Below, in pieces: positions 2,462 to 35,993 of a DNA stretch of 37,471 bases. Both the position numbers and the translations under genes were made by a program. The stretch covers positions 1 to 37,471 of the IMG/VR virus record IMGVR_UViG_3300036713_000524; one strand, 5' to 3'. The DNA is from a virus (taxonomy: Duplodnaviria; Caudoviricetes). The notes beneath the pieces are model-generated. The model was not told the DNA's origin and ran no database searches. It saw only the letters and a program-made list of their open reading frames with translations. The number at the start of each line of letters is the position of its first letter. Within the stretch, counting starts at the first letter, position 1.

Positions 2462-3349
2462 TTATTCCGTCGGCCCTTCGGCATGCACAACCTTTAATTC
2501 ATTTCGCTCCCTCTCTTCGATCTGGTCGGCGACCTCTTTACCTTCGGCCGTCTGCTCCGCGTCGACCTGCTCCGCTGCCGTTGGCATGCACTTGGCGATC
2601 GCTTCGAGCATCTTTGCCTCCAGCGAATCGGTCAACGCTTCGCCGAACCCCTTGGGGAGTACTTTTGAAAAGTGAAGGTGTTCTTTGGATGCTTTCGCGC
2701 GGAGGGCTTCCAGGTCGCCTAATGTTGCGACCGATTCGTTCAATGCTTCCCGCTTCTTGGCCCCCATGCCCTTGACCCCATCGAGCAGGCTATCAACTGG
2801 GATTCTCTTCCATGCATCCGGCTCGCGGCTCGCTTCCGGCTCGCTGGCTTCGTTCGCCTCGATGACCTGCTCGCTGTCCTCCTCTGATGCTTGCGGTTCA
2901 TCCGGTAGCGGGTGACCGGCCAGAATGTCTCGCAGTTCTTCCCCCAACCTACGCAGCCGGATTGTCTCGCCGGCTTGCAGGTCTTTTGCGTCTTTGATCT
3001 TTGCTTTGAATCCTGCGATCTCCGCTTCCGAGAGGTTTATGTTTTCGGTGCATTCCGCGATCTTGCCGAGGACGGCTGTCTGCGCCCAGAATCTTCGCTC
3101 TTGCCGAAGTTCCCATTTGGCAAAAGCATTCTTTCCGATTACGGTCGCCGGCATCGCGGCTGGAACCATCTCGTTGGCCGGCTCCGGCTCCGGCTCCGGC
3201 TCGGTTGCTTCCACCTGGTCGTCGGCCGGCTCGGTTGCTTCCGCTTCGACTTGCTTCGTTGGTGTGTTGGTGAATTTGTTTTCCGTTTCATCAAGATAGA
3301 CGGCTTCGCCCGCTTCGATGTTTTCGGCTGCTTGTAGTTTCACGATCAT
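2462..3349 (-). CDS. Acidic hypothetical protein with coiled coil and C-terminal HhH-like motif
   Basis: 295-aa ORF tightly packed in the operon. Contains an EPEPEPEP linker and HhH-like LDGVKGMGAKKREAL. Confidence 0.75.
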   Translation of the reverse strand: MIVKLQAAENIEAGEAVYLDETENKFTNTPTKQVEAEATEPADDQVEATEPEPEPEPANEMVPAAMPATVIGKNAFAKWELRQERRFWAQTAVLGKIAECTENINLSEAEIAGFKAKIKDAKDLQAGETIRLRRLGEELRDILAGHPLPDEPQASEEDSEQVIEANEASEPEASREPDAWKRIPVDSLLDGVKGMGAKKREALNESVATLGDLEALRAKASKEHLHFSKVLPKGFGEALTDSLEAKMLEAIAKCMPTAAEQVDAEQTAEGKEVADQIEERERNELKVVHAEGPTE

Positions 3350-4419: not shown

Positions 4420-6708
4420 CTAAAAAAGGTGGTTGATTTCGTCGATGATGATTAATTCTCGCAGAAACGTTTTTCGCTTGCCGGCGACTACCTTCCGGCA
4501 CATCTCTTCTGCTGTCTTGCTGCTCCCTATCAAAAAGCATTTTTCCTTGGCTCGGCTAATCGCCGTGTAGAGCCACTCCCGGCTGCATACCATCTTCGCT
4601 CCCGGGTAGCTGTCGATCATCACGACCGCGATACGAAACTCGCTGCCCTGCGACTTGTGGACCGAAATTGCATAACCAAGATCCCAGTTTTTTCCCCCGA
4701 CCTTTTCTCCTTGCTTGGCCGGGTAAAGCGGAATAGAAACTAGCCGATGGGGCGCCGGTAATTCCACCTGCATGCTGTTCCCAACGATCGATATCACTTT
4801 TCCGATCTCGCCGTTGCTCACCCGCGTCTTGTCATACTTACTGTTCTTCAGGCAGATGACCTTGTCGTTCAAGCGGAATAGCCGTCCGGGAATCGCCGGC
4901 ATTGGATTCAATGCCACCTGTAGTCGCTGATTGAGATCCTTGCGTGAAAGCTTCGACTTCTCGTTGACGGCCACCATCACCTGGACGTCCCAAACCGGAT
5001 CGAATCCGTTCGCCTTGCATGCTTTCATTAAAAGGTCGAGCGATGCCAGCTGGCCGGCCGGCTGCCTCTCTTCGAGAATCTTAAAGTTGTCGAGTTGTCC
5101 CGGTTGAACCGACGGCCAGGGAAGGGCGTCCCGGATCGCGGCGCAAACGGCAGGGATCCGTCCTTCGTTCCGTTCAATTTTTGTTAGCTTCCCAAATCCG
5201 ACCGCCCCTGAATTGATCATGTCCCGCATCGGTGCTCCGCCGCCGACCGGTGAAAGTTGATTGACGTCGCCTACCAATAGCATATGGGCATTCGGTTTTG
5301 CGGCTGCAAAAACCGCCCCCATCAGCGGCATGTCCACCATCGACGTTTCGTCTCCGATGATGATTTGCTCTGGCCAGTGTTGGTTGTCGTTGAACGCGAA
5401 GTCCGTTTCGTCATTGCCCCAGCCGAGGTGTGAATGCCAAGTTCTCGCCTTCAAATTCACTTCGGCTTCGTGCAGCACTTCCGTTAGCCGAACCGCTGCC
5501 TTGCCGGTTGGGCATCCGGCGATGATCGATTCCGCGTAGCCGAGGCTGCACAATTCCTTGATCAATCTCGCGACAACGTATGTTTTGCCAGTGCCAGGGC
5601 TTCCGCTCAAAATGCCAAGCCGGCCGGACAACGCCTTTTCCAGTTCGCTTACTTGGTGCCCGGTGATTGTCGCATCGATCTGACAGGCTTCCGGCCATTT
5701 CGTTGCAATTGGAAGCCTGGTCGCCTGGCGATCAATCATTCCGCCGACTTTTTTTGCCAGCCTTTTTTCCGCTCTCGCGTTACTGGCAGACGCTAGCCAT
5801 TGGACGTCGCCTTCCGGATCGATCGGTCCTTCGATGCCCTTCGTCCTGGTTGCCTCGATCGATGCGTAGTGTCGCCCGCGCGAGATGCTGTTCAGCCGAA
5901 TTCCCAATTCAATCGCTTTCCTTGGTCTTGCGTCTCGCCCAGCGATCTTTTCCGGTCTGTTCATCAGGACGCTGGCTCGCTGCCAGGTGTGTTCCTTTTG
6001 TCGGCCGTTTTTTAATTCGTCCCAAATGGCTAGTGTCTGCCTTCGAAGTCTCCCGGGGTCATTGCCGAGGGTTAGCCATAGCGCGTCCGCCATTTTAAAT
6101 CCGACGCCCTTAAACTCGATCAGTTTATAGGGGTCGCGTCTGATGGTTCTCGCTGCCTGGTTGCCCCACTTTTTGATGGCTGCTCCTGCCACCGCTTTTG
6201 GGAACCCCTGGCCGTTCAGCAGGCCGGCGACCTCAATGGCTGCTGCTTCGGTCCACTTCTGCTCCCTCAGTATGCTGACGATTGTCTCTTGCTGCCCTTC
6301 GGTGATCCGGCTGTTGTATCGTCGCAGGCAGGTCGGATCCATCCGAATCGTTGCCACCGTTTCGCTGCCGTATGCCTTCCAGAGTTTCTCGACCGTCACG
6401 CTCCCCATCCCGTTGCCGTCGCCGATTTTTGTCAGGTAGGCGATCACCCCTGCTTTGCTGCTTGGCGTTGCCACGGTGAACGATGTGAATTTAAATTGCT
6501 TTTGCACCGTCTTAAATCGCGGATGCACCCACTCGCTTCGCCGGCCAAAAAAACGATACGTGCCACCCTCTTCAATGTCGCTCGGCTCCGCCACTCCGCT
6601 GACCGAAATGCATCCGTCGCTTGTCTTGACTTCTGCCGCAAACCACTCCCCTTTCCGGACCCGCACTTCTAGAAGGACGCCTTCTATCTCTTCCGTTCTC
6701 GCTGCCAT
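4420..6708 (-). CDS. recD2: RecD2-like SF1B DNA helicase
   Basis: GSPGTGKT, IIGDETSMVD, LVGDVNQL and YAISVHKSQGSEF motifs, plus N-terminal DPYKL..FKGVGFKMAD. Start placed at MAARTEE (6708) rather than 6867, which overlaps the upstream gene. Confidence 0.92.
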   Translation of the reverse strand: MAARTEEIEGVLLEVRVRKGEWFAAEVKTSDGCISVSGVAEPSDIEEGGTYRFFGRRSEWVHPRFKTVQKQFKFTSFTVATPSSKAGVIAYLTKIGDGNGMGSVTVEKLWKAYGSETVATIRMDPTCLRRYNSRITEGQQETIVSILREQKWTEAAAIEVAGLLNGQGFPKAVAGAAIKKWGNQAARTIRRDPYKLIEFKGVGFKMADALWLTLGNDPGRLRRQTLAIWDELKNGRQKEHTWQRASVLMNRPEKIAGRDARPRKAIELGIRLNSISRGRHYASIEATRTKGIEGPIDPEGDVQWLASASNARAEKRLAKKVGGMIDRQATRLPIATKWPEACQIDATITGHQVSELEKALSGRLGILSGSPGTGKTYVVARLIKELCSLGYAESIIAGCPTGKAAVRLTEVLHEAEVNLKARTWHSHLGWGNDETDFAFNDNQHWPEQIIIGDETSMVDMPLMGAVFAAAKPNAHMLLVGDVNQLSPVGGGAPMRDMINSGAVGFGKLTKIERNEGRIPAVCAAIRDALPWPSVQPGQLDNFKILEERQPAGQLASLDLLMKACKANGFDPVWDVQVMVAVNEKSKLSRKDLNQRLQVALNPMPAIPGRLFRLNDKVICLKNSKYDKTRVSNGEIGKVISIVGNSMQVELPAPHRLVSIPLYPAKQGEKVGGKNWDLGYAISVHKSQGSEFRIAVVMIDSYPGAKMVCSREWLYTAISRAKEKCFLIGSSKTAEEMCRKVVAGKRKTFLRELIIIDEINHLF

Positions 6709-7447: not shown

Positions 7448-7611
7448 CGTTCTCTCAATAAGGATTCTAAAGTTAATCGTTCGGGAAGGCTCGATACCAA
7501 TTCCAACGGGTATCCGAGGTGCAAAAGGCTCGCGGCTGCGACCCGCTCTTCGCCATACTTGTCGGCAAGCCGGCGCGTTAAAGGATCCAGGTCCCTCAAC
7601 GCGCTAGTTAG
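7438..7611 (-). CDS. 57-codon -1 frame extension of the RecT-like gene (or a small independent TTG-start ORF)
   Basis: Open frame LTSALRDLDPLTRRLADKYGEERVAAASLLHLGYPLELVSSLPERLTLESLLRERCE* fills the intergenic gap and overlaps the next ATG. It is entered via slippery A AAA AAC at 7617-7611. Confidence 0.65.
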   Translation of the reverse strand, partial: LTSALRDLDPLTRRLADKYGEERVAAASLLHLGYPLELVSSLPERLTLESLLRERCE

Positions 7612-7617
7612 TTTTTT
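7573..7617 (-). other. -1 ribosomal frameshift signal (slippery heptamer + stimulatory hairpin)
   Basis: A AAA AAC, 6-nt spacer TAACTA, then GCGCGUUGAGGGA-CCUGGA-UCCUUUAACGCGC (13-bp stem with 2 G:U pairs). Confidence 0.7.
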
Positions 7618-8633
7618 GCCGGTTCCAAAAACTTCGTCAGGTCGCCGGCTTCCAGCCCCGCGTGAAGTTCGGCCAGGTCGTCTGCCGGTAGTCCGTCCAG
7701 CGTCTCGATCCCGGCTTCGTCTAGATACTTGCGAACGGCCAGGGCGAGGGTTCGGCCCTCCGGGTCCGCTGCAAGTTGGGCAAGCATCAGCCGGGTTGCC
7801 CGCAGCAAATCAGCCGGATCCGGCTCCGGCTCCGGCTCTGGCTCCGGCTCCGCGATCTCCTCCGGGAGTATGGTCACGAGTTCGTCGAGAATCTTGCTCG
7901 CCCCTTCCCTGGTCAAATCGCCCATGTCCCTGGCTCCAGTCGCGGCGATTGCTCGCAGCTGCGATTCCGGTCCGATCGATAGGCGATCGTATTGGACCAT
8001 CAGCGATTTGATCTGCTCGCCTGTCGCCTTCCCTTGGCCGTTTGAAGGAACCCCGGCCGGTGGTTCGCTGTCCCGCTGCGAACCGTCCGACCGAGGCGCC
8101 GTGCTCGGTTCTGGCTTCGTTTCGATCTCGACCGTCGTGTCCGGATCGCCATCGGTGGCAAATCCGGCGAGGACCTCCGGGCAAACCATCAGGATTGCCT
8201 TGCTGGTCACTCTCGCCCTTAGCATGGCGCCGGGATTCTTTTTATAGTTTCCGTCGGCCTTGACCAGTCCCTGGCGTTCCGCGTCCTCCATCGAAAACCG
8301 AACCCTTTCCTTTACTCCCGCAAACTCGACCTCGATCGTTGCCTGGTCGCCGTTGTCGCCGTTTGCTTGCCAACGGTAGGTTCCCCCCAGTCGCCGAAAT
8401 TCGGCGAGCATATACTCCGCCCGCATCAAAAGCTTGCTGCCCTGCTTGCTGTTCATTACATGGAAACGCTTTCGCATCTCCGCCACTGGCACCCCTTCAT
8501 CGTATGCCATCAGGACGAGGGTCGCCCCCTGCTCTGGATTCTTTAATCCGAAAAGTCCGCCGATCGCTAAAATCCGCCCCAATTCGAGGGCGTCTTCTAG
8601 CTGGCTTCTAGTGAAAATCGTTCCTTTGGTCAT
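7608..8633 (-). CDS. RecT/Red-beta-like single-strand annealing protein
   Basis: FSMEDAERQGL..NYKKNPGAMLRARVTSKAILMVCPEVLAG resembles the conserved RecT/Bet core end, followed by an acidic linker and helical C-terminal domains. Adjacent to the SSB-like and helicase genes. Confidence 0.75.
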   Translation of the reverse strand: MTKGTIFTRSQLEDALELGRILAIGGLFGLKNPEQGATLVLMAYDEGVPVAEMRKRFHVMNSKQGSKLLMRAEYMLAEFRRLGGTYRWQANGDNGDQATIEVEFAGVKERVRFSMEDAERQGLVKADGNYKKNPGAMLRARVTSKAILMVCPEVLAGFATDGDPDTTVEIETKPEPSTAPRSDGSQRDSEPPAGVPSNGQGKATGEQIKSLMVQYDRLSIGPESQLRAIAATGARDMGDLTREGASKILDELVTILPEEIAEPEPEPEPEPDPADLLRATRLMLAQLAADPEGRTLALAVRKYLDEAGIETLDGLPADDLAELHAGLEAGDLTKFLEPAKN

Positions 8634-9175: not shown

Positions 9176-9212
9176 CTCTTTTGCCTCGCGATTGGGGTTC
9201 GTTCTGGATCTG

Positions 9213-9241
9213 ACATTATCGACCTCGCTTGCTTGTGTCAA
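9213..9241 (-). promoter_or_regulatory. Putative sigma70 promoter for the replication operon (not of the repeat family)
   Basis: TTGACA (9241-9236), 17 bp, TAATGT (9218-9213), with an A/T-rich tract upstream. Confidence 0.6.
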
Positions 9242-9391
9242 CGAATCCTAGGAAAACAAAAAACCACTTGCTTTTTTTAAATTTTGATCAACAGTGCAAC
9301 GCTTCGCTTCCCGCGTTGCGTTGATCGCTTTCGCGGCAGGCTGCCCCTGCCGCGTCTCTCGCCGGCTGCCGGACCTCGATCGTTGCCCCCG

Positions 9392-9430
9392 ATCGGTTCG
9401 GTGGCCGGCTTCATTACCAGGTCGCCGGCT
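9392..9430. repeat. 39-bp direct repeat, copy 1
   Basis: ATCGGTTCGGTGGCCGGCTTCATTACCAGGTCGCCGGCT, one mismatch to 9730-9768. Confidence 0.9.
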
Positions 9431-9438
9431 TTTGCGAT

Positions 9439-9699
9439 TTAGACCCACGCCCGCGAATCCTTCACCCCGTTTAAGCCGTCGCTGGGTTTCTGGTCGCTGA
9501 GCGGGGTTTCTGGTCGCTGATTTGATCGCCGTTCTCGGAATGCTTCGATTTCGGCTTCTGACACCATCCATCTCGCCCGCTGCTTGCCGAGTCCAATGTT
9601 GACGGCTCGCAATTCGCCGGCCGCGATCAATTTTTTTAGGTGATCGACGCTACATCCCAACCGGGTAGCGGCTGCTCGCACGTTTAGTCCTTTCGTCAT
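9439..9699 (-). CDS. Excisionase-like helix-turn-helix DNA-binding protein (HTH_17/MerR-like)
   Basis: LNVRAAATRLGCSVDHLKKLIAAGELRAVNIG...RWMVSEAEIEAF is a typical Xis-family pattern. Confidence 0.85.
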   Translation of the reverse strand: MTKGLNVRAAATRLGCSVDHLKKLIAAGELRAVNIGLGKQRARWMVSEAEIEAFRERRSNQRPETPLSDQKPSDGLNGVKDSRAWV

Positions 9700-9729: not shown

Positions 9730-9768
9730 ATCGGTTCGGTGGCCGGCTTCATTACCAGGGCGCCGGCT
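9730..9768. repeat. 39-bp direct repeat, copy 2
   Basis: ATCGGTTCGGTGGCCGGCTTCATTACCAGGGCGCCGGCT. Contains the stop codon of the 55-aa ORF. Confidence 0.9.
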
Positions 9769-9919
9769 GGACGTGCCCAGTGTAGTCGACCTTCAGCTTG
9801 CAGATAATTGTCTGGTCCCGGTAGGGAAGGTCGCGTCGCATGAAAACGGTTCCTCCGTCTACGTCGTAAATCCGGAATCCAATCTCAATCAAAAGGGTAA
9901 TCATCTTTTCTTGCGTCAT
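9752..9919 (-). CDS. Small hypothetical protein (55 aa, MTQEKMITLL...)
   Basis: GAGG precedes ATG 9919. Directly downstream of promoter repeat copy 1. Confidence 0.7.
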   Translation of the reverse strand: MTQEKMITLLIEIGFRIYDVDGGTVFMRRDLPYRDQTIICKLKVDYTGHVQPAPW

Positions 9920-9962
9920 CGCTTTGCCTCGTTTTCGCGGTTGTTGTTTCCTGTCTGCCTTT

Positions 9963-10009
9963 ATTATACACACCTTTCGGGATGTGGCAACGCCAAAGGT
10001 GAGCATATT
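9963..10009 (-). promoter_or_regulatory. Palindromic promoter repeat, copy 1
   Basis: TATGCTCAC-N25-GTGTGTATAAT, with TTGCCA-16-TATAAT. Confidence 0.85.
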
Positions 10010-10012
10010 TGC

Positions 10013-10055
10013 AAAAAAAAACCTTCGACCGGCGATTAGGGTCGCCGGCCGAAGG
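10013..10055 (-). terminator. Intrinsic terminator
   Basis: CCTTCGGCCGGCGA/TCGCCGGTCGAAGG 14-bp stem followed by T9 on the minus strand. Confidence 0.85.
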
Positions 10056-10256
10056 GAACGCTGCCGGGGGAGTAGCCCCGGCCACGAGGCATCCGCATTC
10101 TAGCCGGCCGGCTGTCGCGGTCCAGCCCCGCGTCCAACAAATGGACGCATTGATTTGCGTTGCGTCACTCGCGGTTGCCGGCTGCCTCCGGCTCGCTTTC
10201 CTGGTCGATCCCCAGCCCCCGGCCGGCCGGCTGAGGGTTGGTTGGCTGGCTCCGGC

Positions 10257-10418
10257 TCAGTCGTCGGTCTTTACGATCGTCTCCCGGCTTTGTACCGGGT
10301 AGCGGCTGCCGTCGCTTAGCGGAATGTACCAGCCGCTAAATCCGCGTCGAAGGGTGTCGAATACTTCGCGGCCTTCGATCTTGTCGCCTGGCTTTACGGT
10401 GTGGGCTTTGCGTTGCAT
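10257..10418 (-). CDS. Small hypothetical protein (53 aa, MQRKAHTVKPGD...)
   Basis: First ATG downstream of promoter repeat copy 2. Confidence 0.7.
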   Translation of the reverse strand: MQRKAHTVKPGDKIEGREVFDTLRRGFSGWYIPLSDGSRYPVQSRETIVKTDD

Positions 10419-10460
10419 GGTTTCTCTCGCGGGTTGGTCGGTTGTCTCTTGTCTGCCTTT

Positions 10461-10507
10461 ATTATACACACCTTTTGCCCGGTGGCAATGGCAAAGGTGA
10501 GTATATT
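10461..10507 (-). promoter_or_regulatory. Palindromic promoter repeat, copy 2
   Basis: TATACTCAC-N25-GTGTGTATAAT, with TTGCCA-16-TATAAT. Back-to-back with copy 3. Confidence 0.85.
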
Positions 10508-10547
10508 TCGAAAGTTTTCGTCGGCTTGTTTTCTTGTTTTCTTTTCA

Positions 10548-10594
10548 AATATACGCACGATTGACTTGCGTGAAGGCCGAAAGGTGTGTATAAT
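10548..10594 (+). promoter_or_regulatory. Palindromic promoter repeat, copy 3
   Basis: TATACGCAC-N25-GTGTGTATAAT, with TTGCGT-17-TATAAT. Confidence 0.85.
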
Positions 10595-10638
10595 TGGTGT
10601 AGTGAATGAAACACCCGCCAAACCAAAAAGGCACGACG

Positions 10639-10896
10639 ATGAAAAAAACGACCCCCGAGCAAAAAAAAGCTGACCAAGAACTGGCTCTTCGCTTCTCTCG
10701 CATCTCGCCCGAAAAGGCTGAGAACATCCGCCAGGCATATTACGCTGTCGCGGATCAGCTTGAGCCTCTGATGCAAATGCTGGAGGACGCTGATTGCGAC
10801 CTCGATTACGAAGCCGGCCCCTTGATCGAGGAGCACCTCAAAATCTGCGCTGCTGTCGAAGCTTTCAAAAAGTCCCGCATCGGCGCGGTTCTTTAA
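10639..10896 (+). CDS. Small hypothetical protein (85 aa, MKKTTPEQ...)
   Basis: Helical ORF downstream of copy 3 with an AAGG SD-like sequence. Confidence 0.75.
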   Translation: MKKTTPEQKKADQELALRFSRISPEKAENIRQAYYAVADQLEPLMQMLEDADCDLDYEAGPLIEEHLKICAAVEAFKKSRIGAVL

Positions 10897-10908
10897 TCCC
10901 TGTCACCC

Positions 10909-10935
10909 GCCAGCCGGCGATCGTCGCCGGCTGGC
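10909..10935. repeat. Intercistronic GCCGGCGATCGTCGCCGGC hairpin (diverged copy of the 63-bp repeat)
   Basis: GCCAGCCGGCGA-TCG-TCGCCGGCTGGC, 12-bp stem with no T tail. Confidence 0.8.
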
Positions 10936-10960
10936 TCGTTCCCTCTCTTTGGAGTTTTCA

Positions 10961-11164
10961 ATGCGTATTCTCACGATAGTCTTGAAATCTGGCGCCAAGC
11001 TTGAATTCGAAATGCCGGTGTCGTATGACCCGGCCGACTTGATGAATTTTCAGTGCCGGTGGTTCGCAACCATCGAAAGCCCATATTACCGGGTCCAGGG
11101 CTGCACGGGTCCCGTCCAGATCGACGTCCGCACCCTTGCTGTTGTCACTTGCCGAAAGGCATAG
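10961..11164 (+). CDS. Small hypothetical protein (67 aa, MRILTIVLKSG...)
   Basis: GGAG at 10951 before the ATG. Followed by a terminator. Confidence 0.75.
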   Translation: MRILTIVLKSGAKLEFEMPVSYDPADLMNFQCRWFATIESPYYRVQGCTGPVQIDVRTLAVVTCRKA

Positions 11165-11176
11165 GACGCGGCAGCC

Positions 11177-11218
11177 GGCCGGCCAGGCATTCCAGCCTGG
11201 CCGGCCTTTTCTTTTTTT
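11177..11218 (+). terminator. Intrinsic terminator
   Basis: GGCCGGCCAGGC-ATTCCA-GCCTGGCCGGCC perfect 12-bp stem followed by a T tract. Confidence 0.9.
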
Positions 11219-11225
11219 CTTTTCA

Positions 11226-11271
11226 AATATACGCATAATTGACTTGCAGCAATCCGAAAGGTGTGTATAAT
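11226..11271 (+). promoter_or_regulatory. Palindromic promoter repeat, copy 4
   Basis: TATACGCAT-N24-GTGTGTATAAT, with TTGCAG-16-TATAAT. Confidence 0.85.
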
Positions 11272-11317
11272 TGGGGTAGTGAAGCAAACAACCGTCAAAC
11301 ATCGCGAGGCAAAAACG

Positions 11318-12148
11318 ATGACCTGCCCTTCAAACATCCCCTTCGGCGTCGAACTAGAAACCACCATGCCCGTCTCGGATACAACCCCGATCGGTGGTTA
11401 TCACCGAGGGCTGCCCGTCCAGTGGCTTCCCTCCGGCTGGAAGGCTGAACGGGACGGATCCATCCGAACCATCCCGAACCGCAAGGGTTGCGAATTCGTC
11501 AGCCCCATCCTTCGCGGAACCGACGGCCTGGAACAAATCCAAACCGCTTGCGACTCGATCAAAGATCGCGGTGGAAAGGTCAACGCTTCATGCGGTGTCC
11601 ACGTCACGGTCACCTTCGATGGCGACGCGGCTGCACTTGCTCGCCTGGTCTGCCTGGTCGCAAACCATGAAAAAGCTCTTTACGCTTCGACTGGAACGAC
11701 GACCAGGGAAGAGGGCACCTACGCTAAAGGGCTGAAAAGCTACGGCAAGGATGACGCAAAAAGCCGGCTTGATCGGGATCGCTTCCACGTCTTGAATCTG
11801 ACGCACATCGCTCGCGGTCGCAACCGCGTAGAATTCCGCGTTTTTTCCGGCTCGCTGAATCCTGACAAAATCACCGCATGGGTTCAAATCTGCTTGGCAC
11901 TTGTTTCGCTCGCAACCGCGCAGCAACGATCAACGTCTTGGGATTACGAAGCAAAGGCCGGCAAGCCTGGCCCTTGGGATCGCTCAGGGGCTGGCGAGGG
12001 CGAGACGGAGTTGGCTCGCCTATTCTATCGCATCGGCTGGACCAAGGGCCACACATCGAAGACCTACGGGGTTATCGGTGAAGGTGTGAAAGCGATGAAA
12101 AAAACGCTTCGGCTGATGGGTCGCAAATACGACGCGGCTGCCGCGTAG
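11318..12148 (+). CDS. Putative amidoligase (COOH-NH2 ligase, Amidoligase_2-like)
   Basis: FGVELET, WKAERDGSI, CEFVSPIL, NASCGVHVTV, RFHVLNL and VEFRVFSGSLN motifs. GAGG before ATG 11318. Confidence 0.88.
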   Translation: MTCPSNIPFGVELETTMPVSDTTPIGGYHRGLPVQWLPSGWKAERDGSIRTIPNRKGCEFVSPILRGTDGLEQIQTACDSIKDRGGKVNASCGVHVTVTFDGDAAALARLVCLVANHEKALYASTGTTTREEGTYAKGLKSYGKDDAKSRLDRDRFHVLNLTHIARGRNRVEFRVFSGSLNPDKITAWVQICLALVSLATAQQRSTSWDYEAKAGKPGPWDRSGAGEGETELARLFYRIGWTKGHTSKTYGVIGEGVKAMKKTLRLMGRKYDAAAA

Positions 12149-12174
12149 CCGGCTGCCGGCTGCCGGCCATCGCT

Positions 12175-12207
12175 AGAACCCGGGGTTATTTTCCAGGTTC
12201 TTTTTTT
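12175..12207 (+). terminator. Intrinsic terminator
   Basis: AGAACCCGGGG...TTCCAGGTTCT imperfect stem followed by a T tract. Confidence 0.7.
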
Positions 12208-12208
12208 A

Positions 12209-12255
12209 TTTATACGCACCTTTCGCTTGCGTCCTGTCCGAAAGGTGTGTATAAT
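12209..12255 (+). promoter_or_regulatory. Palindromic promoter repeat, copy 5
   Basis: TTATACGCACCTTTCG...CGAAAGGTGTGTATAAT, with TTGCGT-17-TATAAT. Confidence 0.9.
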
Positions 12256-12301
12256 TGGTGTAGTGAATGAAACAAAACCCTTTCCGCTCCGAGGCTTTCC
12301 G

Positions 12302-12616
12302 ATGAATTCCATCCGTCAATTCAACGACAACGATTTTGCTGCTTTTGCTGGCGTCAGTTCTTTCGCTGACGATACTCGCCCCCTGATCTGGTTTGATACA
12401 ACCGGCGACATTGTTGTCGTTGGTTCCAAAATCGGCATCTCGATTTTGTTTTCGCCCGGTGAATCGGAAGATTTCATCGAAGCCCACCTGACGATGAATC
12501 TGCCGTCTCAGCCGATCGCTCGCGCAACGATGGCCGGTGTGATCGCAAGCATCGATTTTGTTGATTTTCACAAAATGTTGGACGGATTGTCAAAGCTTGG
12601 CTTCAAGGCAATCTGA
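12302..12616 (+). CDS. Hypothetical protein (104 aa, MNSIRQFND...)
   Basis: GAGG before the ATG. Sits between copies 5 and 6. Confidence 0.75.
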   Translation: MNSIRQFNDNDFAAFAGVSSFADDTRPLIWFDTTGDIVVVGSKIGISILFSPGESEDFIEAHLTMNLPSQPIARATMAGVIASIDFVDFHKMLDGLSKLGFKAI

Positions 12617-12627
12617 AAAACTTTTCA

Positions 12628-12674
12628 ATTATACGCACCTTTCGCTTGCAAGCCATCCGAAAGGTGTGTATAAT
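12628..12674 (+). promoter_or_regulatory. Palindromic promoter repeat, copy 6
   Basis: ATTATACGCACCTTTCG-N13-CGAAAGGTGTGTATAAT, with TTGCAA-17-TATAAT. 12617-12676 is identical to 12978-13037. Confidence 0.9.
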
Positions 12675-12733
12675 ACGAGCATGGCGAACGGGGTTCGCCG
12701 CCTTCCCTTCCCTCTTGCTTTGGAGTCTTCGCC

Positions 12734-12976
12734 ATGCGTCCTTCGTCCATCACCGTTTCTGGTTCGCTCGCTGACCTCTCGACCGTTGCTGACGTTCGAG
12801 GGCTGTCCCAACGCCACTTCGGTGGGATCCAGTGGGAATCTGCCGCAAAGCGGATCGCGCGTCGTGCCGGTGGCTTCCGTGTCTTGTTGGCCGACGGCCG
12901 ACTTCGAATCTTCACCTTGCTCGCTGACGGCCGGGTTGCTGTCTCGACCTGGAATGCAACCGACTGGTCATTCTAG
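12734..12976 (+). CDS. Small hypothetical protein (80 aa)
   Basis: GGAG before the ATG. Sits between copies 6 and 7. Confidence 0.75.
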   Translation: MRPSSITVSGSLADLSTVADVRGLSQRHFGGIQWESAAKRIARRAGGFRVLLADGRLRIFTLLADGRVAVSTWNATDWSF

Positions 12977-12988
12977 GAAAACTTTTCA

Positions 12989-13035
12989 ATTATACGCACC
13001 TTTCGCTTGCAAGCCATCCGAAAGGTGTGTATAAT
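12989..13035 (+). promoter_or_regulatory. Palindromic promoter repeat, copy 7
   Basis: Core identical to copy 6. Confidence 0.9.
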
Positions 13036-13079
13036 ACAAACATCGAAAGCAACCCCCGCCAATCACGAGGCACCTCGAA

Positions 13080-13625
13080 ATGTCCACTCTTTACACCGTC
13101 ACCGTCGAAAGCTCCGGCCGAACCCGCCACTCATTCGGTCGCCTTGAAGAAACCTTCGACGATGCTCTTCGTTTCGCTCGCCGGCTCTGGAACGGCTGCA
13201 GCCCTGCTGAGCGAGGCAAGTGGGATTCCATCTCGGTTGCGTCCCCCGAGAGCACCACGGTCGTCTGGACCCGCCCCTCGCTGCTCGACATCCCGGCCGG
13301 TCGATACGCTTTCGAAGGCAAGCGATACGTTGTCACCGTCCCGAAGGCCGGCTCCAAATGGTTCGGATTCGTCTTCGTCGCAACGGGTAGCGAATACCAC
13401 GACCGCACAACCATCGCTGTCGTCACCCCACGCGGGACCTTCGGTGTGAAAACGTCGGCCAGGGGAGAGGCTGTCACCAACGCCATCGCGGCTGACCCCA
13501 TCGGCCGCATGGCGGAATTCGGCCAAATCACCGGCCGGTGTGGTCGATGCGGTCGGGTCCTTGAGGACGCGGATTCAATCGCTGCCGGTCTTGGCCCGAT
13601 CTGCCAGCAAAAAATGGCCGGCTGA
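13080..13625 (+). CDS. Protein with C-terminal DUF6011-like zinc-binding motif
   Basis: GRCGRCGRVLEDADSIAAGLGPIC matches CxxCGRxLxDxxSxxxGxGPxC. GAGG upstream. Confidence 0.8.
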   Translation: MSTLYTVTVESSGRTRHSFGRLEETFDDALRFARRLWNGCSPAERGKWDSISVASPESTTVVWTRPSLLDIPAGRYAFEGKRYVVTVPKAGSKWFGFVFVATGSEYHDRTTIAVVTPRGTFGVKTSARGEAVTNAIAADPIGRMAEFGQITGRCGRCGRVLEDADSIAAGLGPICQQKMAG

Positions 13626-13634
13626 TCCCGGCCG

Positions 13635-13663
13635 GGTCCGGAATCAATCCGGACCTTTTTTTT
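13635..13663 (+). terminator. Intrinsic terminator
   Basis: GGTCCGGA-ATCAA-TCCGGACC followed by T8. Confidence 0.88.
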
Positions 13664-13710
13664 ATTATGCCCACCTTTCGCTTGCAACGCATCCGAAAGG
13701 TGTGTATAAT
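13664..13710 (+). promoter_or_regulatory. Palindromic promoter repeat, copy 8
   Basis: TATGCCCAC-N25-GTGTGTATAAT, with TTGCAA-17-TATAAT. Confidence 0.9.
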
Positions 13711-13752
13711 TGGTGTAGTGAATGAAACACCCGCCAACCACGAGCCACAAAA

Positions 13753-13998
13753 ATGTCCGATTCACTTGTTGTCCACGCGAACCGCATGGATTCCGCCATC
13801 CTGGTCGTCATCAACGAAACGGCGAAAGCTTGGGAAGTTCGCAACGTCGATTGTGGACGGTCTTGCTGGCTGCCGAAGAGCGGACTTCGCCTTTACAAGC
13901 CAGGCGTCGAATCCTACGAGGGCGAGTATGTTCTCGCTCCCTGGCTTCGGTCGAAGCTTTCCGACCAGCAAGAAAAGGTCTTGAACCTTTTGATGTGA
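13753..13998 (+). CDS. Small hypothetical protein (81 aa, ETAKAW...WLPKS motif)
   Basis: ORF fills the space between copies 8 and 9. Confidence 0.78.
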   Translation: MSDSLVVHANRMDSAILVVINETAKAWEVRNVDCGRSCWLPKSGLRLYKPGVESYEGEYVLAPWLRSKLSDQQEKVLNLLM

Positions 13999-14009
13999 AA
14001 ATCTTTTCA

Positions 14010-14057
14010 ATTATACGCACCTTTCCCCTTGCAAGGACCCCGAAAGGTGTGTATAAT
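14010..14057 (+). promoter_or_regulatory. Palindromic promoter repeat, copy 9
   Basis: TATACGCAC-N26-GTGTGTATAAT, with TTGCAA-17-TATAAT. Confidence 0.9.
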
Positions 14058-14097
14058 TGGTGTAGTGAATGAAACACCCGCCAACCTGGAACCAGCC

Positions 14098-14244
14098 ATG
14101 AAAACCCGCACCGTCTGCCTGACCCCCATCCGCCCCGAAGTTGTCAGCTATGTCGAGTGGCTGAAAAAAGAAGGCATCGTTGTCGTCTCCGTCGTATGGC
14201 CCACGCTGCCCGGTCGCGACGTCCGCGTCACCTTCGAGGTTTGA
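14098..14244 (+). CDS. Small hypothetical protein (48 aa, MKTRTVCL...)
   Basis: ATG placed about 40 bp after copy 9, as in the other cassettes. Confidence 0.65.
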   Translation: MKTRTVCLTPIRPEVVSYVEWLKKEGIVVVSVVWPTLPGRDVRVTFEV

Positions 14245-14306
14245 ACCGCTCCCTTTCCCCACGGCTGGCACGATCGCCAGCCGGCCCCTTCCCGAGGAAC
14301 CCTGCC

Positions 14307-14486
14307 ATGAAAAAGCTTGACGCCACTCACCGGCTCTTCGCCAAGGCTGACGCAATCAAAATTGCTGCCGAAATGAAGGCCGGCGATCCCGATTGGGATT
14401 ACCGTCCGGTTCATTGCCCGAAAGGGACCGGCTTCAGTTTCATCGAAATTTTCGACGAGGACGGTCAATTCGTCGCCCGCGTTTAA
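14307..14486 (+). CDS. Small hypothetical protein (59 aa, MKKLDATHRL...)
   Basis: Preceded by the RBS block CCCCTTCCCGAGGAACCCTGC (14285-14305). Confidence 0.72.
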   Translation: MKKLDATHRLFAKADAIKIAAEMKAGDPDWDYRPVHCPKGTGFSFIEIFDEDGQFVARV

Positions 14487-14517
14487 TCCTGCTTCCCCTT
14501 CCCGAGGAACCCTGCAA

Positions 14518-14790
14518 ATGCCCGCTTACAATCCCGATCTCCAGATCACCCGCCCGGACAAAACCGGAGCCAGGACCGTCCATCGCGCTGCTCGCGGCCC
14601 TTCGGCCGATCCGGCCTTTACTGGCGACCCCGGCGACCCCGGCTGCAACGGCCGGTGTGTTGTCGCGAGAATCAGCCGGTATCTCGGTGGCCGTGAAGGA
14701 ATCAGCCACGTCGTGACCGGCTGCAATATTCACGCTCGGTTCTATTCCGAAAAGGCCGCGATCGATTGGTGTCGATCGACCTTCGGCTAA
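14518..14790 (+). CDS. Small hypothetical protein (90 aa)
   Basis: Preceded by the same 21-bp RBS block (14495-14515). Confidence 0.72.
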   Translation: MPAYNPDLQITRPDKTGARTVHRAARGPSADPAFTGDPGDPGCNGRCVVARISRYLGGREGISHVVTGCNIHARFYSEKAAIDWCRSTFG

Positions 14791-14800
14791 AATCTTTTCA

Positions 14801-14847
14801 ATTATGCTCACCTTTCCCTTGCGAGGACCCCGAAAGGTGTGTATAAT
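14801..14847 (+). promoter_or_regulatory. Palindromic promoter repeat, copy 10
   Basis: TATGCTCAC-N25-GTGTGTATAAT, with TTGCGA-17-TATAAT. Confidence 0.9.
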
Positions 14848-14890
14848 ACAAACATCGAAAGCAACCCCCGCCAAACCAAAAGGCACCGCA

Positions 14891-15115
14891 ATGTCCAATC
14901 AAAAAGCCCTCACCGCTTACCTTCGGACCGCGTCTGACGTCCGTGCTTTGCTCGCTCGCCTCGAATCAGGGTTGGATGCTTACCAGGACCGTGTTTCTCC
15001 TGACGAGGTCAACTATGGCCACGTGGGCGATATGGGATACCTGATGGCTTCCCTGCAGGACCTGTCCGACCGCGTCAACGAGGAGAACGAATACGCCTCT
15101 GATGAGGCAGCCTAG
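14891..15115 (+). CDS. Small helical phage protein (74 aa, PDEVNYGHVGD motif)
   Basis: Downstream of copy 10. The motif recalls a phage hypothetical family (PDE[IV]xWGHVG), from memory only. Confidence 0.75.
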   Translation: MSNQKALTAYLRTASDVRALLARLESGLDAYQDRVSPDEVNYGHVGDMGYLMASLQDLSDRVNEENEYASDEAA

Positions 15116-15174
15116 TCGCTGCCCTGCTTCCCAACGGCCGGCGATCGTCGCCGGCCGGCTTGCTCCCTCTTGCT
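15112..15174. repeat. 63-bp exact direct repeat with hairpin, copy 1
   Basis: CTAGTCGCTGCCCTGCTTCCCAACGGCCGGCGATCGTCGCCGGCCGGCTTGCTCCCTCTTGCT, identical to 15400-15462. Confidence 0.95.
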
Positions 15175-15187
15175 CCACTCCTGTCCC

Positions 15188-15403
15188 ATGAATTACAGCA
15201 AACCCTATTTTCAAGCCACCCTTCCGTTTGTCTCGCGGAAAGAAGCAATCAGTCAGCGAGAAAAACGCGATGCCATCCGCGCTCGCAACGCCAGGTTGAT
15301 GTCTCGCCGCTACCCCACTGAATTGCAATGCCAAAGGGCCATCGATCGCTCGCCCGATTGGGCTGAGTTGTTGGCCACCGAGACGATGGATCTCTGCTTC
15401 TAG
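15188..15403 (+). CDS. Small hypothetical protein (71 aa, MNYSKPYF...)
   Basis: ORF exactly bracketed by the two 63-bp repeats. Confidence 0.65.
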   Translation: MNYSKPYFQATLPFVSRKEAISQREKRDAIRARNARLMSRRYPTELQCQRAIDRSPDWAELLATETMDLCF

Positions 15404-15462
15404 TCGCTGCCCTGCTTCCCAACGGCCGGCGATCGTCGCCGGCCGGCTTGCTCCCTCTTGCT
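15400..15462. repeat. 63-bp exact direct repeat with hairpin, copy 2
   Basis: Identical to 15112-15174. Includes the TAG stop of the upstream gene. Confidence 0.95.
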
Positions 15463-15475
15463 GGTCCTGTCTCCA

Positions 15476-15784
15476 ATGTCGCAAATGTCGACTCGACTTT
15501 TTGGCCGTCGTTTAATTCTCGATTGCTTGAATTCCATTTTCGTTTCGCTTGCTCACCTTCGGGTTCAAATGGACGCCCGGGCAGTTCCCGAGGAGCAAAA
15601 GAAAATTTCGCGTGAGCACTTCCGGCAGGTCGTTGGCCGTGCTGGAAAACTCGCCGATCTTGCAATGCTTCCCGGCGATCACCTGTCCCCCCGCGTATTT
15701 TACGATGCGTCCGCGCTGCTTGGCGCCGTGAACCGGACGCGGGAACGGCTGGCCAGTGAGGAGGCTTCCCGCAAAAAGGGCTAA
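15476..15784 (+). CDS. Hypothetical protein (~102 aa, MSQMSTRL...)
   Basis: ORF between the 63-bp repeat and promoter copy 11. Confidence 0.65.
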   Translation: MSQMSTRLFGRRLILDCLNSIFVSLAHLRVQMDARAVPEEQKKISREHFRQVVGRAGKLADLAMLPGDHLSPRVFYDASALLGAVNRTRERLASEEASRKKG

Positions 15785-15830
15785 ATATGCCCACGGTTGA
15801 CTTCCCTTGGCCGGATTCGGTGTGTATAAT
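15784..15830 (+). promoter_or_regulatory. Degenerate promoter repeat, copy 11
   Basis: TATGCCCAC-N25-GTGTGTATAAT is retained. The inner CCTTTCG/CGAAAGG arms are lost and the -35 is weak (TTCCCT). Confidence 0.75.
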
Positions 15831-15898
15831 AGGGGCATCGGCAATAGTCGCCGCCCCACTTGAACCTTCCCAAACCTTACCAACCCCCTGCAGATCCG

Positions 15899-16096
15899 AT
15901 GTCCAAGCAATCGCGACAAAATATCACCCAACCCGACGCCTGGCTGGAAGCCTGGAAAGCCCAGGCCAAAAAAGAAAAAAAGAACCTTTCCCAGTGGATC
16001 GGCGAAAAGTGCAACGCCGGCCTTCCCAAAAGAACGGCCGGCCGGCTCGTCGAGCGACGTGGACCCGGACGCGTAAAGACCGAATCCGCGGATTAA
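15899..16096 (+). CDS. Putative ribbon-helix-helix DNA-binding protein (65 aa)
   Basis: RQNITQP (strand), DAWLEAWKAQAKKE (helix), NLSQWIGEKCN (helix), then a basic tail RRGPGR. Confidence 0.65.
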   Translation: MSKQSRQNITQPDAWLEAWKAQAKKEKKNLSQWIGEKCNAGLPKRTAGRLVERRGPGRVKTESAD

Positions 16097-16440: not shown

Positions 16441-17028
16441 ATGCACGAATTACGAATCGCCTTTTTGCTGTCGGCTGCCGTCGGCGCTGCCCTTTTCTGC
16501 AATAGCCCGGTAACGGCTCAATACCAGAACCCCGGCGACCTGCCTGACGCCCCGCTCAATCTGTCGCAGGCTCAGCTGGATGCCAGGGCGCCGATCGTCG
16601 AATCGATCAACGAAGCCCACGAAGCTTTCGACGAGGCTGTCCTTGCTCACGGTGAGCTAGTTTCAATCCTGGAACAACTACAGGATTTGCTTGCGAATAC
16701 GGACCCGGATTGTCCTGTCGTGCCCGCCATCGAAGATGCGATTGACGCCTTGCAAACCGAATCTGCCTCTTATCAGAATAGCGTTTTGCTCACTAGCACC
16801 CACCTGTCTTGGGTGTTTGCTTATAACATCACCGCTCAGGGCGACGCGTCTGCCCAAGGCTGGCAGAACCTTTACGCTTCGGCCCTTGGCGAGGCCAATA
16901 CGATCAAAGGTGTATCTCAAACGCTTCGCGGAAATCTGAACGCTTCCGTTAGCGTTGCTCAGTCGCTGCTTGATGCCTTGACCGCTCTGGTCAACGCTTG
17001 GGATGAGGACCAAGGTGGCGGATTCTAG
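16441..17028 (+). CDS. Secreted/periplasmic acidic helical protein (moron-like)
   Basis: AGGA before ATG 16441. Signal-peptide-like MHELRIAFLLSAAVGAALFCNSPVTA. Has its own terminator. Confidence 0.78.
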   Translation: MHELRIAFLLSAAVGAALFCNSPVTAQYQNPGDLPDAPLNLSQAQLDARAPIVESINEAHEAFDEAVLAHGELVSILEQLQDLLANTDPDCPVVPAIEDAIDALQTESASYQNSVLLTSTHLSWVFAYNITAQGDASAQGWQNLYASALGEANTIKGVSQTLRGNLNASVSVAQSLLDALTALVNAWDEDQGGGF

Positions 17029-35372: not shown

Positions 35373-35993
35373 TTACTCTTGCGCTGCTTGCCAGGCATCG
35401 AATGCAGCAACCAACGGATCGATTCCTGCGAGGCAATCGGCTTTGATGTCATCGGCTTTGCTTTTAGCGGTCACGCCTCTCGCTTCGATCGCGGCAAATT
35501 CGGTTTCTGCATCGTCAAGTTCGCCCGACCAATAGGCAACGCCGACCGCGCTCATGCCATCTTCAAAGTGTGTCTGCGGACCTTCCCATGTCGCGCTGGC
35601 ATCGAGGTAATCAAGGTCGTCTTCAAGGGTCGGATTTCCGGTCACATATCGATCTTGCCAAGCCTGGTCCAGAATGTCTTCTGCCGCATCGATTGCATCC
35701 TGGTCATCAAATCCGCTGTTGATGACGTAGTCGTCGAGCAAATCGGCGAGGTCCGTGTAGGCTGAATCCATTTCATCCACGGATTCTTGAACGAACAAAT
35801 ACTGATCAACCGCGTCGACCCACGCATCGGTGGTTGAACCTTCCGCTTTCGTTTGCTGTCCCCAAACCCCATATGGGTAGCTAGTCGGATAAGTTGGTTC
35901 CCACGTCGGGCCGTAAGCAGCTGCCGTGCTTACCATTGCTAGCGCGGCTGCAACCGCAAAAAAACTTTGCCTTCCAATCATCTCATTCTCCAA
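35373..35993 (-). CDS. Secreted/periplasmic very acidic helical protein (moron-like)
   Basis: Signal-peptide-like MIGRQSFFAVAAALAMVSTAAA and an Asp/Glu/Ala-rich mature part. The true start is probably the internal MIGR. Confidence 0.75.
   Translation of the reverse strand: MENEMIGRQSFFAVAAALAMVSTAAAYGPTWEPTYPTSYPYGVWGQQTKAEGSTTDAWVDAVDQYLFVQESVDEMDSAYTDLADLLDDYVINSGFDDQDAIDAAEDILDQAWQDRYVTGNPTLEDDLDYLDASATWEGPQTHFEDGMSAVGVAYWSGELDDAETEFAAIEARGVTAKSKADDIKADCLAGIDPLVAAFDAWQAAQE

What the first reader, a model, noticed from the sequence alone, without database searches (positions are those of the whole stretch)
9752..16096. Array of small-gene cassettes each headed by a palindromic promoter repeat (11 copies): candidate undescribed co-regulated, shufflable gene-cassette system
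Seen: 11 copies of a ~47-bp element at 9963, 10461 (minus), 10548, 11226, 12209, 12628, 12989, 13664, 14010, 14801 and 15784 (plus). The consensus is ATTATACGCACCTTTCG-N13-CGAAAGGTGTGTATAAT. All have a perfect TATAAT, and ten have TTGCNN 16-17 bp upstream. Each precedes 1-3 unrelated short ORFs and begins just after the previous stop codon or terminator. I saw no full copy elsewhere in the window. Known: repeated strong promoters in front of small genes mark phage early/host-takeover and anti-defence regions. Inference: each repeat is at once promoter, operator and homology or recombination junction, giving an integron-like expandable array of accessory genes under one switch.
Basis: partly seen in the sequence, partly recalled or inferred. 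Interest (0 to 1): 0.85.

Follow-up and report, generated by a model that had tools for sequence, protein, structure and literature searches.

The report
Repressor-controlled phage promoter-cassette array
An uncultured phage, likely of planctomycete bacteria, places the same promoter-like repeat in front of eleven groups of tiny, mostly unknown genes; a small predicted DNA-binding protein encoded at the end of the row likely switches them all off after an early burst, and related phages have gained, lost and swapped genes at such repeats, which makes these genes candidate blockers of host defence.

Summary
The 11 repeats are real: each is a sigma-70-type promoter whose -35 box is flanked by two inverted 9-bp half-sites (22 in the window, none outside the repeats). 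The best reading joins two known designs. (1) Aca14/Reg576-like control: the 65-aa gene behind the last, most degenerate copy is a predicted ribbon-helix-helix (RHH) dimer. A DNA-only scan with the repeat's geometry returned 13 unrelated promoter sequences; 8 head operons with an RHH-type gene carrying the same R-x-N recognition strand (0 of 24 control promoters; pattern set post hoc). (2) PeSL-like exchange: the copies are mosaics of upstream and downstream halves, and related planctomycete phages carry such arrays with other repeats, share three cargo families, and differ by whole cassettes (45 of 62 large indels equal a repeat-to-repeat length; 5% by chance). 'Integron-like' is not supported: no integrase is seen and junctions are not fixed. 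No relative with the same repeat, no circle junction and no RNA data were found; binding and cargo function are untested. The scan has noted similar arrays on other DNA. New variant of known kinds.

The parts
9963..10009 (-). promoter-operator repeat (TTGCCA-16-TATAAT), heads the 55-aa ORF
10461..10507 (-). promoter-operator repeat (TTGCCA-16-TATAAT), back to back with the copy at 10548
10548..10594 (+). promoter-operator repeat, outer half-sites kept, inner left arm degenerate
11226..11271 (+). promoter-operator repeat, half-site spacing 24
12209..12255 (+). promoter-operator repeat
12628..12674 (+). promoter-operator repeat; 60 bp identical to the copy at 12989
12989..13035 (+). promoter-operator repeat; upstream half as 12628, leader as 14801 (mosaic)
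13664..13710 (+). promoter-operator repeat
14010..14057 (+). promoter-operator repeat; upstream half nearest 14801, leader as 13664 (mosaic)
14801..14847 (+). promoter-operator repeat
15784..15830 (+). most degenerate repeat: outer half-sites kept, inner arms lost, poorest -35; heads the RHH gene
15899..16096 (+). 65-aa predicted ribbon-helix-helix protein with strand R6-x-N8-x-T10; candidate repressor of all repeats
   Evidence: no Pfam, PHROG or NCBIfam hit
9752..9919 (-). cargo ORF, 55 aa, unknown
10257..10418 (-). cargo ORF, 53 aa; 51-61% identical relatives in 6 fetched planctomycete array loci
10639..10896 (+). cargo ORF, 85 aa; relatives in 106 fetched loci, up to three copies per array
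10961..11164 (+). cargo ORF, 67 aa, unknown; followed by a terminator-like hairpin at 11177-11206
11318..12148 (+). amidoligase (PF12224, phrog_2443); best relatives 55-67% identical, named ones in Planctomycetota
12302..12616 (+). cargo ORF, 104 aa, unknown
12734..12976 (+). cargo ORF, 80 aa, flanked by the two 60-bp identical repeats
13080..13625 (+). DUF6011 / phrog_636 protein, 181 aa; terminator-like hairpin at 13634-13656
13753..13998 (+). cargo ORF, 81 aa, unknown
14098..14790 (+). three cargo ORFs (48, 59, 90 aa) joined by a repeated 20-bp start-region linker at 14286 and 14496
14891..15784 (+). three cargo ORFs (74 aa phrog_14596, 71 aa, 102 aa) joined by a 63-bp identical hairpin linker at 15112-15174 and 15400-15462
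10913..10931 (+). third copy of the hairpin linker, between the ORFs at 10639 and 10961
9439..9699 (-). HTH_17 excisionase-like gene next to the array; alternative regulator candidate
7608..8633 (-). RecT-like single-strand annealing protein (phrog_561, E 1.6e-14); possible recombinase for exchange between repeats
   Evidence: role inferred

Best explanation
The repeat is likely a host-type early promoter with a built-in operator, and the predicted ribbon-helix-helix protein encoded behind the last copy likely binds the two half-sites and shuts all eleven promoters off after an initial burst, while the shared sequence likely also lets whole gene cassettes be gained, lost or swapped by homologous recombination. 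Shown: the repeats, their promoter consensus, the fixed half-site geometry, the mosaic copies, and whole-cassette differences among related phages that carry other repeats. Inferred: transcription from the repeats; on entry no repressor is present, so about 16 small proteins are made at once; the RHH protein, made from the weakest and most degenerate copy, builds up last and closes the regulon; crossovers in the shared core (perhaps by the phage's RecT-like protein) move cassettes; the cargo serves host takeover or counter-defence.
For: Half-site present 22 times, two per repeat, none elsewhere, spacing 25 bp in 9 of 11, and one position free to mismatch in the hairpin in 5 of 11 copies, as expected of a protein site. 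Homodimer model of the 65-aa protein: score 0.63 against best control 0.03 (mark reached by 21 of 30 solved pairs, 0 of 23 single chains; runs agree in at least 96% of contacts, pLDDT at least 81), with residues 5-11 of the two copies in contact and helix 33-41 packed across; a pass may reflect likeness to solved RHH dimers. A DNA-only scan of IMG/VR with the operator geometry gave 25 non-self loci with 13 distinct promoter sequences; 8 head operons with a small ORF bearing an R-x-N strand (HicB antitoxins in L322, L325, L332, L348; stand-alone RHH-type genes behind variable small genes in L321, L327, L331, L350), against 0 of 24 control promoters, and the window's only such ORF is the one behind the last repeat. 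The window protein aligns with the C-terminal domain of the L322 HicB (RQNITQP / RKNITIP; score 50, 0 of 2000 shuffles) and with an L331 domain (59, 0 of 2000). A different RHH-like family in related phages goes with a different inverted repeat around the -35: 6 of 8 loci with the family's C-terminal motif, 15 of 59 in all, against 11 of 614 and 1 of 400 control windows; L064 has five such repeats on an amidoligase-led array and a degenerate copy before its RHH-like gene. Exchange: nearest upstream and nearest downstream neighbour differ for 7 of 8 plus-strand copies tested, and the two identity sets do not correlate (rho -0.31, p 0.11); 45 of 62 large indels among 8 sister arrays match a repeat-to-repeat length within 1 bp, 5% expected; in four distinct core-related phages identity stops at the start codon behind the promoter and three different genes follow each of two promoter copies. 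[quoted passage not shown]
Against: No transcript, binding or reporter data. The 65-aa protein has no homolog in 5.8 billion proteins, no family hit, BLASTP saw no match to the L331 protein, five of seven pairwise comparisons were not significant, and the single-chain AlphaFold2 model shows two helices and no strand. The R-x-N pattern was written after seeing the hits, the 8 promoters are about 5 lineages, and 5 of 13 promoter sequences have no such gene. The operator pattern of the second RHH family found 0 of 62 new loci in its strict form and was relaxed after inspection. No other phage with the window's own repeat array was found, so exchange at this repeat rests on mosaics and analogy; three runs showed no true deletion or circle joint. 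The 62 indels are pairwise and reflect perhaps eight events. No cargo gene matches a known anti-defence protein in Pfam, PHROGs or NCBIfam. About a third of the genome is missing.
Confidence: 0.65

Rival explanations
1. The inverted repeat works as a nucleic-acid structure, as in PeSLs: a stem-loop in read-through RNA that attenuates or processes the upstream message, or a cruciform that makes the promoters respond to supercoiling; no repressor is needed.
For: Five copies fold at -21 to -24 kcal/mol as RNA; several left-arm changes give G-U pairs on the sense strand (variant at 14811-14812 in run X2); five copies follow a stop codon with no separate terminator; PeSL stem-loops can overlap the -10 and act as terminators (PMC2839356 section 13).
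Against: No U-tract follows the stem; three copies have lost the inner stem yet keep the outer half-sites and their spacing; one half-site position mismatches in 5 of 11 copies; no Rfam match; stem strength does not track the absence of a terminator.
Confidence: 0.13
2. The repeat is an operator, but for another protein: the HTH_17 gene at 9439-9699 or an immunity repressor in the missing third of the genome that keeps the array silent in a lysogen.
For: HTH_17 lies next to the array; the record is 63% complete; the closest core relative has an integrase at the matching position (L147); sister arrays sit in prophages and carry a HARE-HTH gene instead of a visible RHH.
Against: Unrelated promoters with the same half-sites go with R-x-N RHH genes; the RHH gene is itself behind a copy of the repeat; excisionase-like genes also occur in L147, which has no array.
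Confidence: 0.13
3. The copies are unregulated strong early promoters spread by duplication and gene conversion; the palindrome is an inherited by-product.
For: Long identical stretches between copies (37-60 bp) show recent copying, which can carry a neutral palindrome along.
Against: Both half-sites and their spacing survive in copies that share little else, including the minus-strand and terminal ones; other phage groups have different palindromes in the same position.
Confidence: 0.06
4. An integron-like, site-specific system inserts and excises cassettes at the palindrome.
For: Unrelated genes between imperfect palindromes; whole-cassette indels in sister arrays.
Against: No integrase in the window; every cassette brings its own promoter; junctions in relatives lie anywhere from about 200 bp before to 65 bp into the repeat; order is collinear among close relatives.
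Confidence: 0.03

Closest known systems
PeSL (promoter-early stem-loop) cassettes of T4-type phages (PMC2839356: abstract, sections 13 and 16 read; PMC4122927: first third read)
   Same: Repeated sigma-70 promoter with AT-rich upstream part and an inverted repeat that can overlap the -10, placed after the upstream stop codon and before orphan genes; chimeric copies; whole-gene indels between copies.
   Different: PeSL stems are G/C-rich terminators of variable position and no repressor is described in the sections read; here the inverted repeat is a fixed pair of half-sites around the -35, in a small lambda-like-head phage; mini-circles not seen here.
Reg576 / EGeRS2 establishment regulon of plasmid p576 (PMC8708921: passages read)
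   Same: Several strong promoters with the same operator head operons of early genes; an RHH repressor gene sits behind one of them and is repressed less strictly; transient expression on entry.
   Different: Conjugative Bacillus plasmid; direct heptamer repeats upstream of the -35; four promoters; ArdC as known cargo; no sequence link tested.
Aca14 and other Aca regulators of phage anti-defence operons (PMC13551039: abstract, passages and section 24 read)
   Same: RHH dimer, inverted repeat over the -10, control of its own and neighbouring operons of small genes.
   Different: Aca status needs a known acr gene in the operon, which is not found here; eleven promoters rather than two; homology to Aca14 not tested.
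RHH-type HicB antitoxins (PF15919; PDB 6G1N, 4P78, 9SVK; PMC10865869: passages read)
   Same: Same R-x-N-x-T/S strand; hicAB promoters with the same half-site geometry were returned by the DNA scan.
   Different: The window protein is a stand-alone domain with no HicA partner or RNase H-like domain.
Integrons (recalled, no call)
   Same: Row of unrelated cassettes separated by imperfect palindromes.
   Different: No IntI, no single upstream promoter, no fixed crossover point.

Membership tests
PeSL cassettes | Repeated sigma-70 consensus promoter with AT-rich upstream region before orphan genes | tested here: met
PeSL cassettes | Stem-loop that acts as terminator or attenuator | tested here: inconclusive
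   stems fold at -9 to -24 kcal/mol but lack a U-tract; the terminator scan does not call them
PeSL cassettes | Gene gain or loss by recombination between copies | tested here: inconclusive
   met in relatives with other repeats; for this repeat only mosaic copies
PeSL cassettes | Mini-circles from exchange between neighbouring copies | tested here: inconclusive
   no true joint in contigs of three runs, which break at the repeats and drop rare forms
PeSL cassettes | T4-type myovirus hyperplastic region | tested here: not met
   lambda-family portal, S49 protease-capsid fusion, tape measure
Aca / Reg576-type autoregulated entry regulon | Small DNA-binding gene co-transcribed from an operator-bearing promoter | tested here: met
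   predicted RHH behind the copy at 15784
Aca / Reg576-type autoregulated entry regulon | Repressor binds the repeat and represses the promoters | not testable with these tools
   only co-occurrence of strand and half-site
Aca / Reg576-type autoregulated entry regulon | Known anti-CRISPR or anti-restriction gene among the cargo | tested here: not met
   no such hit in Pfam, PHROGs or NCBIfam; no dedicated anti-defence library was available
Integron | Integron integrase beside the array | tested here: not met
   none among 47 window proteins; record 63% complete
Integron | Promoterless cassettes with a fixed crossover point | tested here: not met
   each cassette has a promoter; junctions vary in sister arrays

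The most novel reading that the evidence does not exclude
Planctomycete phages share one pool of small counter-defence genes that moves between genomes as promoter-bearing cassettes, while each lineage plugs in its own repressor-operator pair (at least three seen: this one, the TGATT-type with an AT-hook RHH, and the CATG-type of the prophages). A readable link between the RHH strand (R-x-N) and the GTGT half-site would then let such terminal repressors be used, like aca genes, to mine new anti-defence proteins in a phylum where few are known.
Probability: 0.3. Interest if true: 0.75.

Novelty: new variant of a known kind. Interest (0 to 1): 0.52.

Why it matters
It gives a named, testable repressor-operator pair for an 11-promoter phage regulon and shows that shuffling promoter cassettes (PeSL-type) and entry-burst autoregulation (Aca/Reg576-type) can be one and the same element. 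It also points to about 15 unknown small proteins here, and more in 48 of 80 planctomycete genome loci with a sister array, as candidates for host-takeover or anti-defence functions. The principles are known; the combination, the host group and the swappable repressor-operator pairs over a shared cargo pool were not found in my searches.

Tried and rejected
Same-repeat relatives: scans of IMG/VR, JGI metagenomes and GenBank phages returned only another assembly of the same phage (L013, L141) and single-copy matches. Reads: no RNA holder listed; contigs of three DNA runs break at the repeats; the four 'joints' come from a neighbouring contig laid on repeat copies; the holes in run X2 coincide with cassettes but its contig ends imply those cassettes exist, and only about 75% of the run was read, so they were not counted as deletions; depth 15.7 and 16.9 on the two cassettes flanked by 60- and 63-bp identical repeats in X2 (others 8-13) is a weak hint only. 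I first thought the two minus-strand repeats drive the replication operon; a separate non-repeat promoter at 9241 (minus) heads it, so I dropped that. A divergent antisense promoter from the left-arm TATAAT has no usable -35 (one search does not call one). The window RHH is not detectably related to the AT-hook RHH family and has no PDB sequence match. Rfam: nothing. Atlas search for the 85-aa cargo protein: best score 0.80, no lead. The link of the 74-aa cargo ORF to sister family F4 is weak (direct hits in 2 loci), and the DUF6011 link to core-related phages covers only the 15% zinc-finger end. The first indel test at 25-bp tolerance was uninformative (55 of 82, 45% by chance) and was redone at 1 bp on gaps of 300 bp or more. 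My recollection that Aca10 is an RHH protein is not borne out by PMC13551039, which lists Aca1-12 as HTH. PMC6159526 passages gave no comparable operator. A likeness between the upstream parts of the window repeat and the prophage repeat was seen by eye; the prophage profile does not score in the window, so homology is not claimed.


Full report
Context. The window is a whole 37,471-base linear virus record, estimated 63% complete. Its minus strand carries a DNA methylase, terminase, lambda-family portal, fused S49 protease-capsid, tail genes and, at the other end, an HTH_17 gene, RecT-like protein, RecD-like helicase, ERCC4 nuclease and primase. The array sits between tail and replication genes. 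The host is likely a planctomycete: named amidoligase relatives are Planctomycetota and all 80 genome loci kept of 137 found have titles from that phylum (placement of Kuenenia and Phycisphaera recalled). No integrase or CI-like gene was found among 47 proteins; the closest core relative, L147, has an integrase at the matching position and no array.

Observation. GGTGTGTATAAT occurs 11 times against 0 in 200 shuffles, and every TATAAT of the window lies in a repeat. Ten copies have TTGCNN at 16-17 bp; the copy at 15784 does not. The long palindrome is near-perfect in five copies only; all 11 keep a 9-bp outer half-site on both arms, 25 bp apart in 9 of 11, and that half-site occurs 22 times, none outside the repeats. 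Start codons follow 41-47 bp after the -10 in nine copies, 60 and 69 bp in two. Two more linker repeats join genes inside cassettes. Another assembly reproduces the order.

Who reads the operator. The gene behind the last, most degenerate copy encodes 65 residues with no family hit and no homolog. The Atlas gave RHH families as leads. A single-chain model showed two helices only, but the two-copy model passed with 0.63 against a best control of 0.03, with residues 5-11 of both copies in contact and helix 33-41 packed across, the layout of an RHH dimer; such a pass can come from likeness to solved dimers. I then scanned IMG/VR with the operator geometry alone. Of 30 loci, 5 were the same phage; the other 25 held 13 distinct promoter sequences. 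Eight head operons with a small ORF that has an R-x-N strand: HicB antitoxins (Pfam; PDB 4P78 and 6G1N) and stand-alone RHH-type genes that close short operons of different small genes (L321, L327, L331, L350). Control promoters scored 0 of 24, and the window's only such ORF is the candidate. The candidate aligns with the L322 HicB tail and an L331 domain beyond 2000 shuffles, but not with five other proteins, and BLASTP missed the L331 match. That the strand residues set RHH specificity is established knowledge (recalled); that HicB RHH domains bind palindromic operators is stated in PMC10865869 (passages). The protein pattern was written after seeing the hits and the eight promoters are about five lineages, so this is strong support for a hypothesis, not proof.

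A second repressor-operator pair in relatives. Core-related phages (L152-L156, L168-L178) have two promoter copies with another inverted repeat around the -35 and an AT-hook plus RHH-like gene at the end of the region. L064 has an amidoligase-led array with five copies of a related repeat and a degenerate copy before a homologous RHH-like gene; L161 has the same pair. In 62 new loci fetched with this protein family (16 of 64 parts of the collection scanned) a strict pattern found nothing; after relaxing it on inspection, 6 of 8 loci with the family's C-terminal motif and 15 of 59 usable loci had the operator-promoter within 1.5 kb, against 11 of 614 and 1 of 400 control windows. This family is not detectably related to the window's protein.

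Exchange. In the window, 12628 and 12989 share their upstream 40 bp exactly but not their leaders; 12989 and 14801 share leaders; 14010 is nearest 14801 upstream and 13664 downstream: the copies are mosaics with crossovers in the core. The amidoligase fetched 79 other viral loci (best 80 of 106); most are planctomycete prophages with an array between terminase and methylase, headed by a third repeat, GCTTGA-N13-CATGGCTCATGTG. Of these, 43 have three or more copies, as do 48 of 80 genome loci. They share the amidoligase, the 85-aa ORF (106 loci) and the 53-aa ORF (6 loci) with the window. Among 8 closely related arrays chosen from them, 45 of 62 pairwise gaps of 300 bp or more equal a repeat-to-repeat length within 1 bp (5% expected; not independent, perhaps eight events). 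Junctions vary in position, order is collinear among close relatives and differs between subgroups, and one family occurs up to three times. In four distinct core-related phages identity ends at the start codon behind the promoter, and three different genes follow each promoter copy (one record is cut). No relative with the window's own repeat array was found and contigs of three runs showed no true joint.

Mechanism. Most likely: host polymerase fires all copies on entry; the RHH protein, made from the weakest copy, accumulates and binds the half-sites on either side of the -35, the right one overlapping the -10; the burst ends. The shared core and the linker repeats give 37-63 bp of identity for homologous exchange, perhaps by the phage's RecT-like protein. 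Promoter activity, binding, timing, recombinase and cargo function are inferred. The amidoligase class has been proposed to modify the host wall against superinfection (PMC5498523, one passage); nothing else has a functional lead. The replication operon has its own promoter at 9241, so the regulon is accessory.

Comparison and novelty. It works like a PeSL array (PMC2839356, abstract and sections 13 and 16; PMC4122927, first third) under Reg576- or Aca14-type control (PMC8708921, passages; PMC13551039, abstract, passages and section 24). It is not a member of either by strict test (not T4-type; no known acr or ard cargo) and not an integron. Searches found no description of these planctomycete arrays; the library lacks most subscription papers and I opened no supplements, where motif lists of the Aca paper could bear on novelty. 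Earlier notes of this scan describe promoter-cassette arrays and RHH regulons in other genomes, so the design is recurrent; none was for this genome or look-alike DNA. Verdict: new variant of known kinds, interest 0.52.

Noticed in passing
window 9392-9430 and 9730-9768: A 39-bp direct repeat (97% identical) flanks the HTH_17 gene, so that gene is itself built like an excisable cassette.
   Followed up: no
window about 9200-9270, minus strand: A separate sigma-70-like promoter with an AT-rich upstream tract and short AAGCAAG repeats heads the RecT-to-primase operon; possible site for the HTH_17 protein.
   Followed up: partly
window 10913-10931, 15112-15174, 15400-15462; 14286 and 14496: Two further linker repeats inside cassettes: a G/C hairpin with a pyrimidine tract and no U-run, and a 20-bp start-region linker.
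   Followed up: partly
window 14811-14812: Run X2 has two C>T changes in the left arm of the 14801 repeat; the cassettes between the 60- and 63-bp identical repeats have higher contig depth in that run.
   Followed up: partly
window 16441-17028 (+) and 35373-35993 (-): Two acidic, about 200-aa proteins with signal-peptide-like starts and no family above cut-off; the first lies on the plus strand just behind the array.
   Followed up: no
L030:9900-16400 and 48 of 80 genome loci L179-L258: Widespread planctomycete prophage arrays between terminase and methylase use a repeat with a good -35 but a non-canonical -10 inside the palindrome ACACATG-N3-CATGTGT, and carry HARE-HTH and DUF4314 genes; reader of this repeat unknown.
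   Followed up: partly
L327:5001-5578, L331:1-1018, L350:5001-6260, L321:4361-5044: One-promoter versions of the same design in other phages: the same promoter and nearly the same terminal RHH-type gene with one, two or three different small genes between.
   Followed up: partly
L164:3490-3540, 5380-5435, 6240-6570: A core-related phage has another inverted repeat around a -35 before small genes, a tRNA-like fragment next to an integrase-like gene (read by eye), and a duplicated palindromic promoter.
   Followed up: no
window 27671-30343: S49 protease and major capsid protein are fused in one 890-aa ORF with no full-length match in GenBank phages.
   Followed up: no
window 3173-3207, 7809-7855: Pro-Glu repeats in two replication-region proteins give a shared DNA microrepeat.
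   Followed up: no
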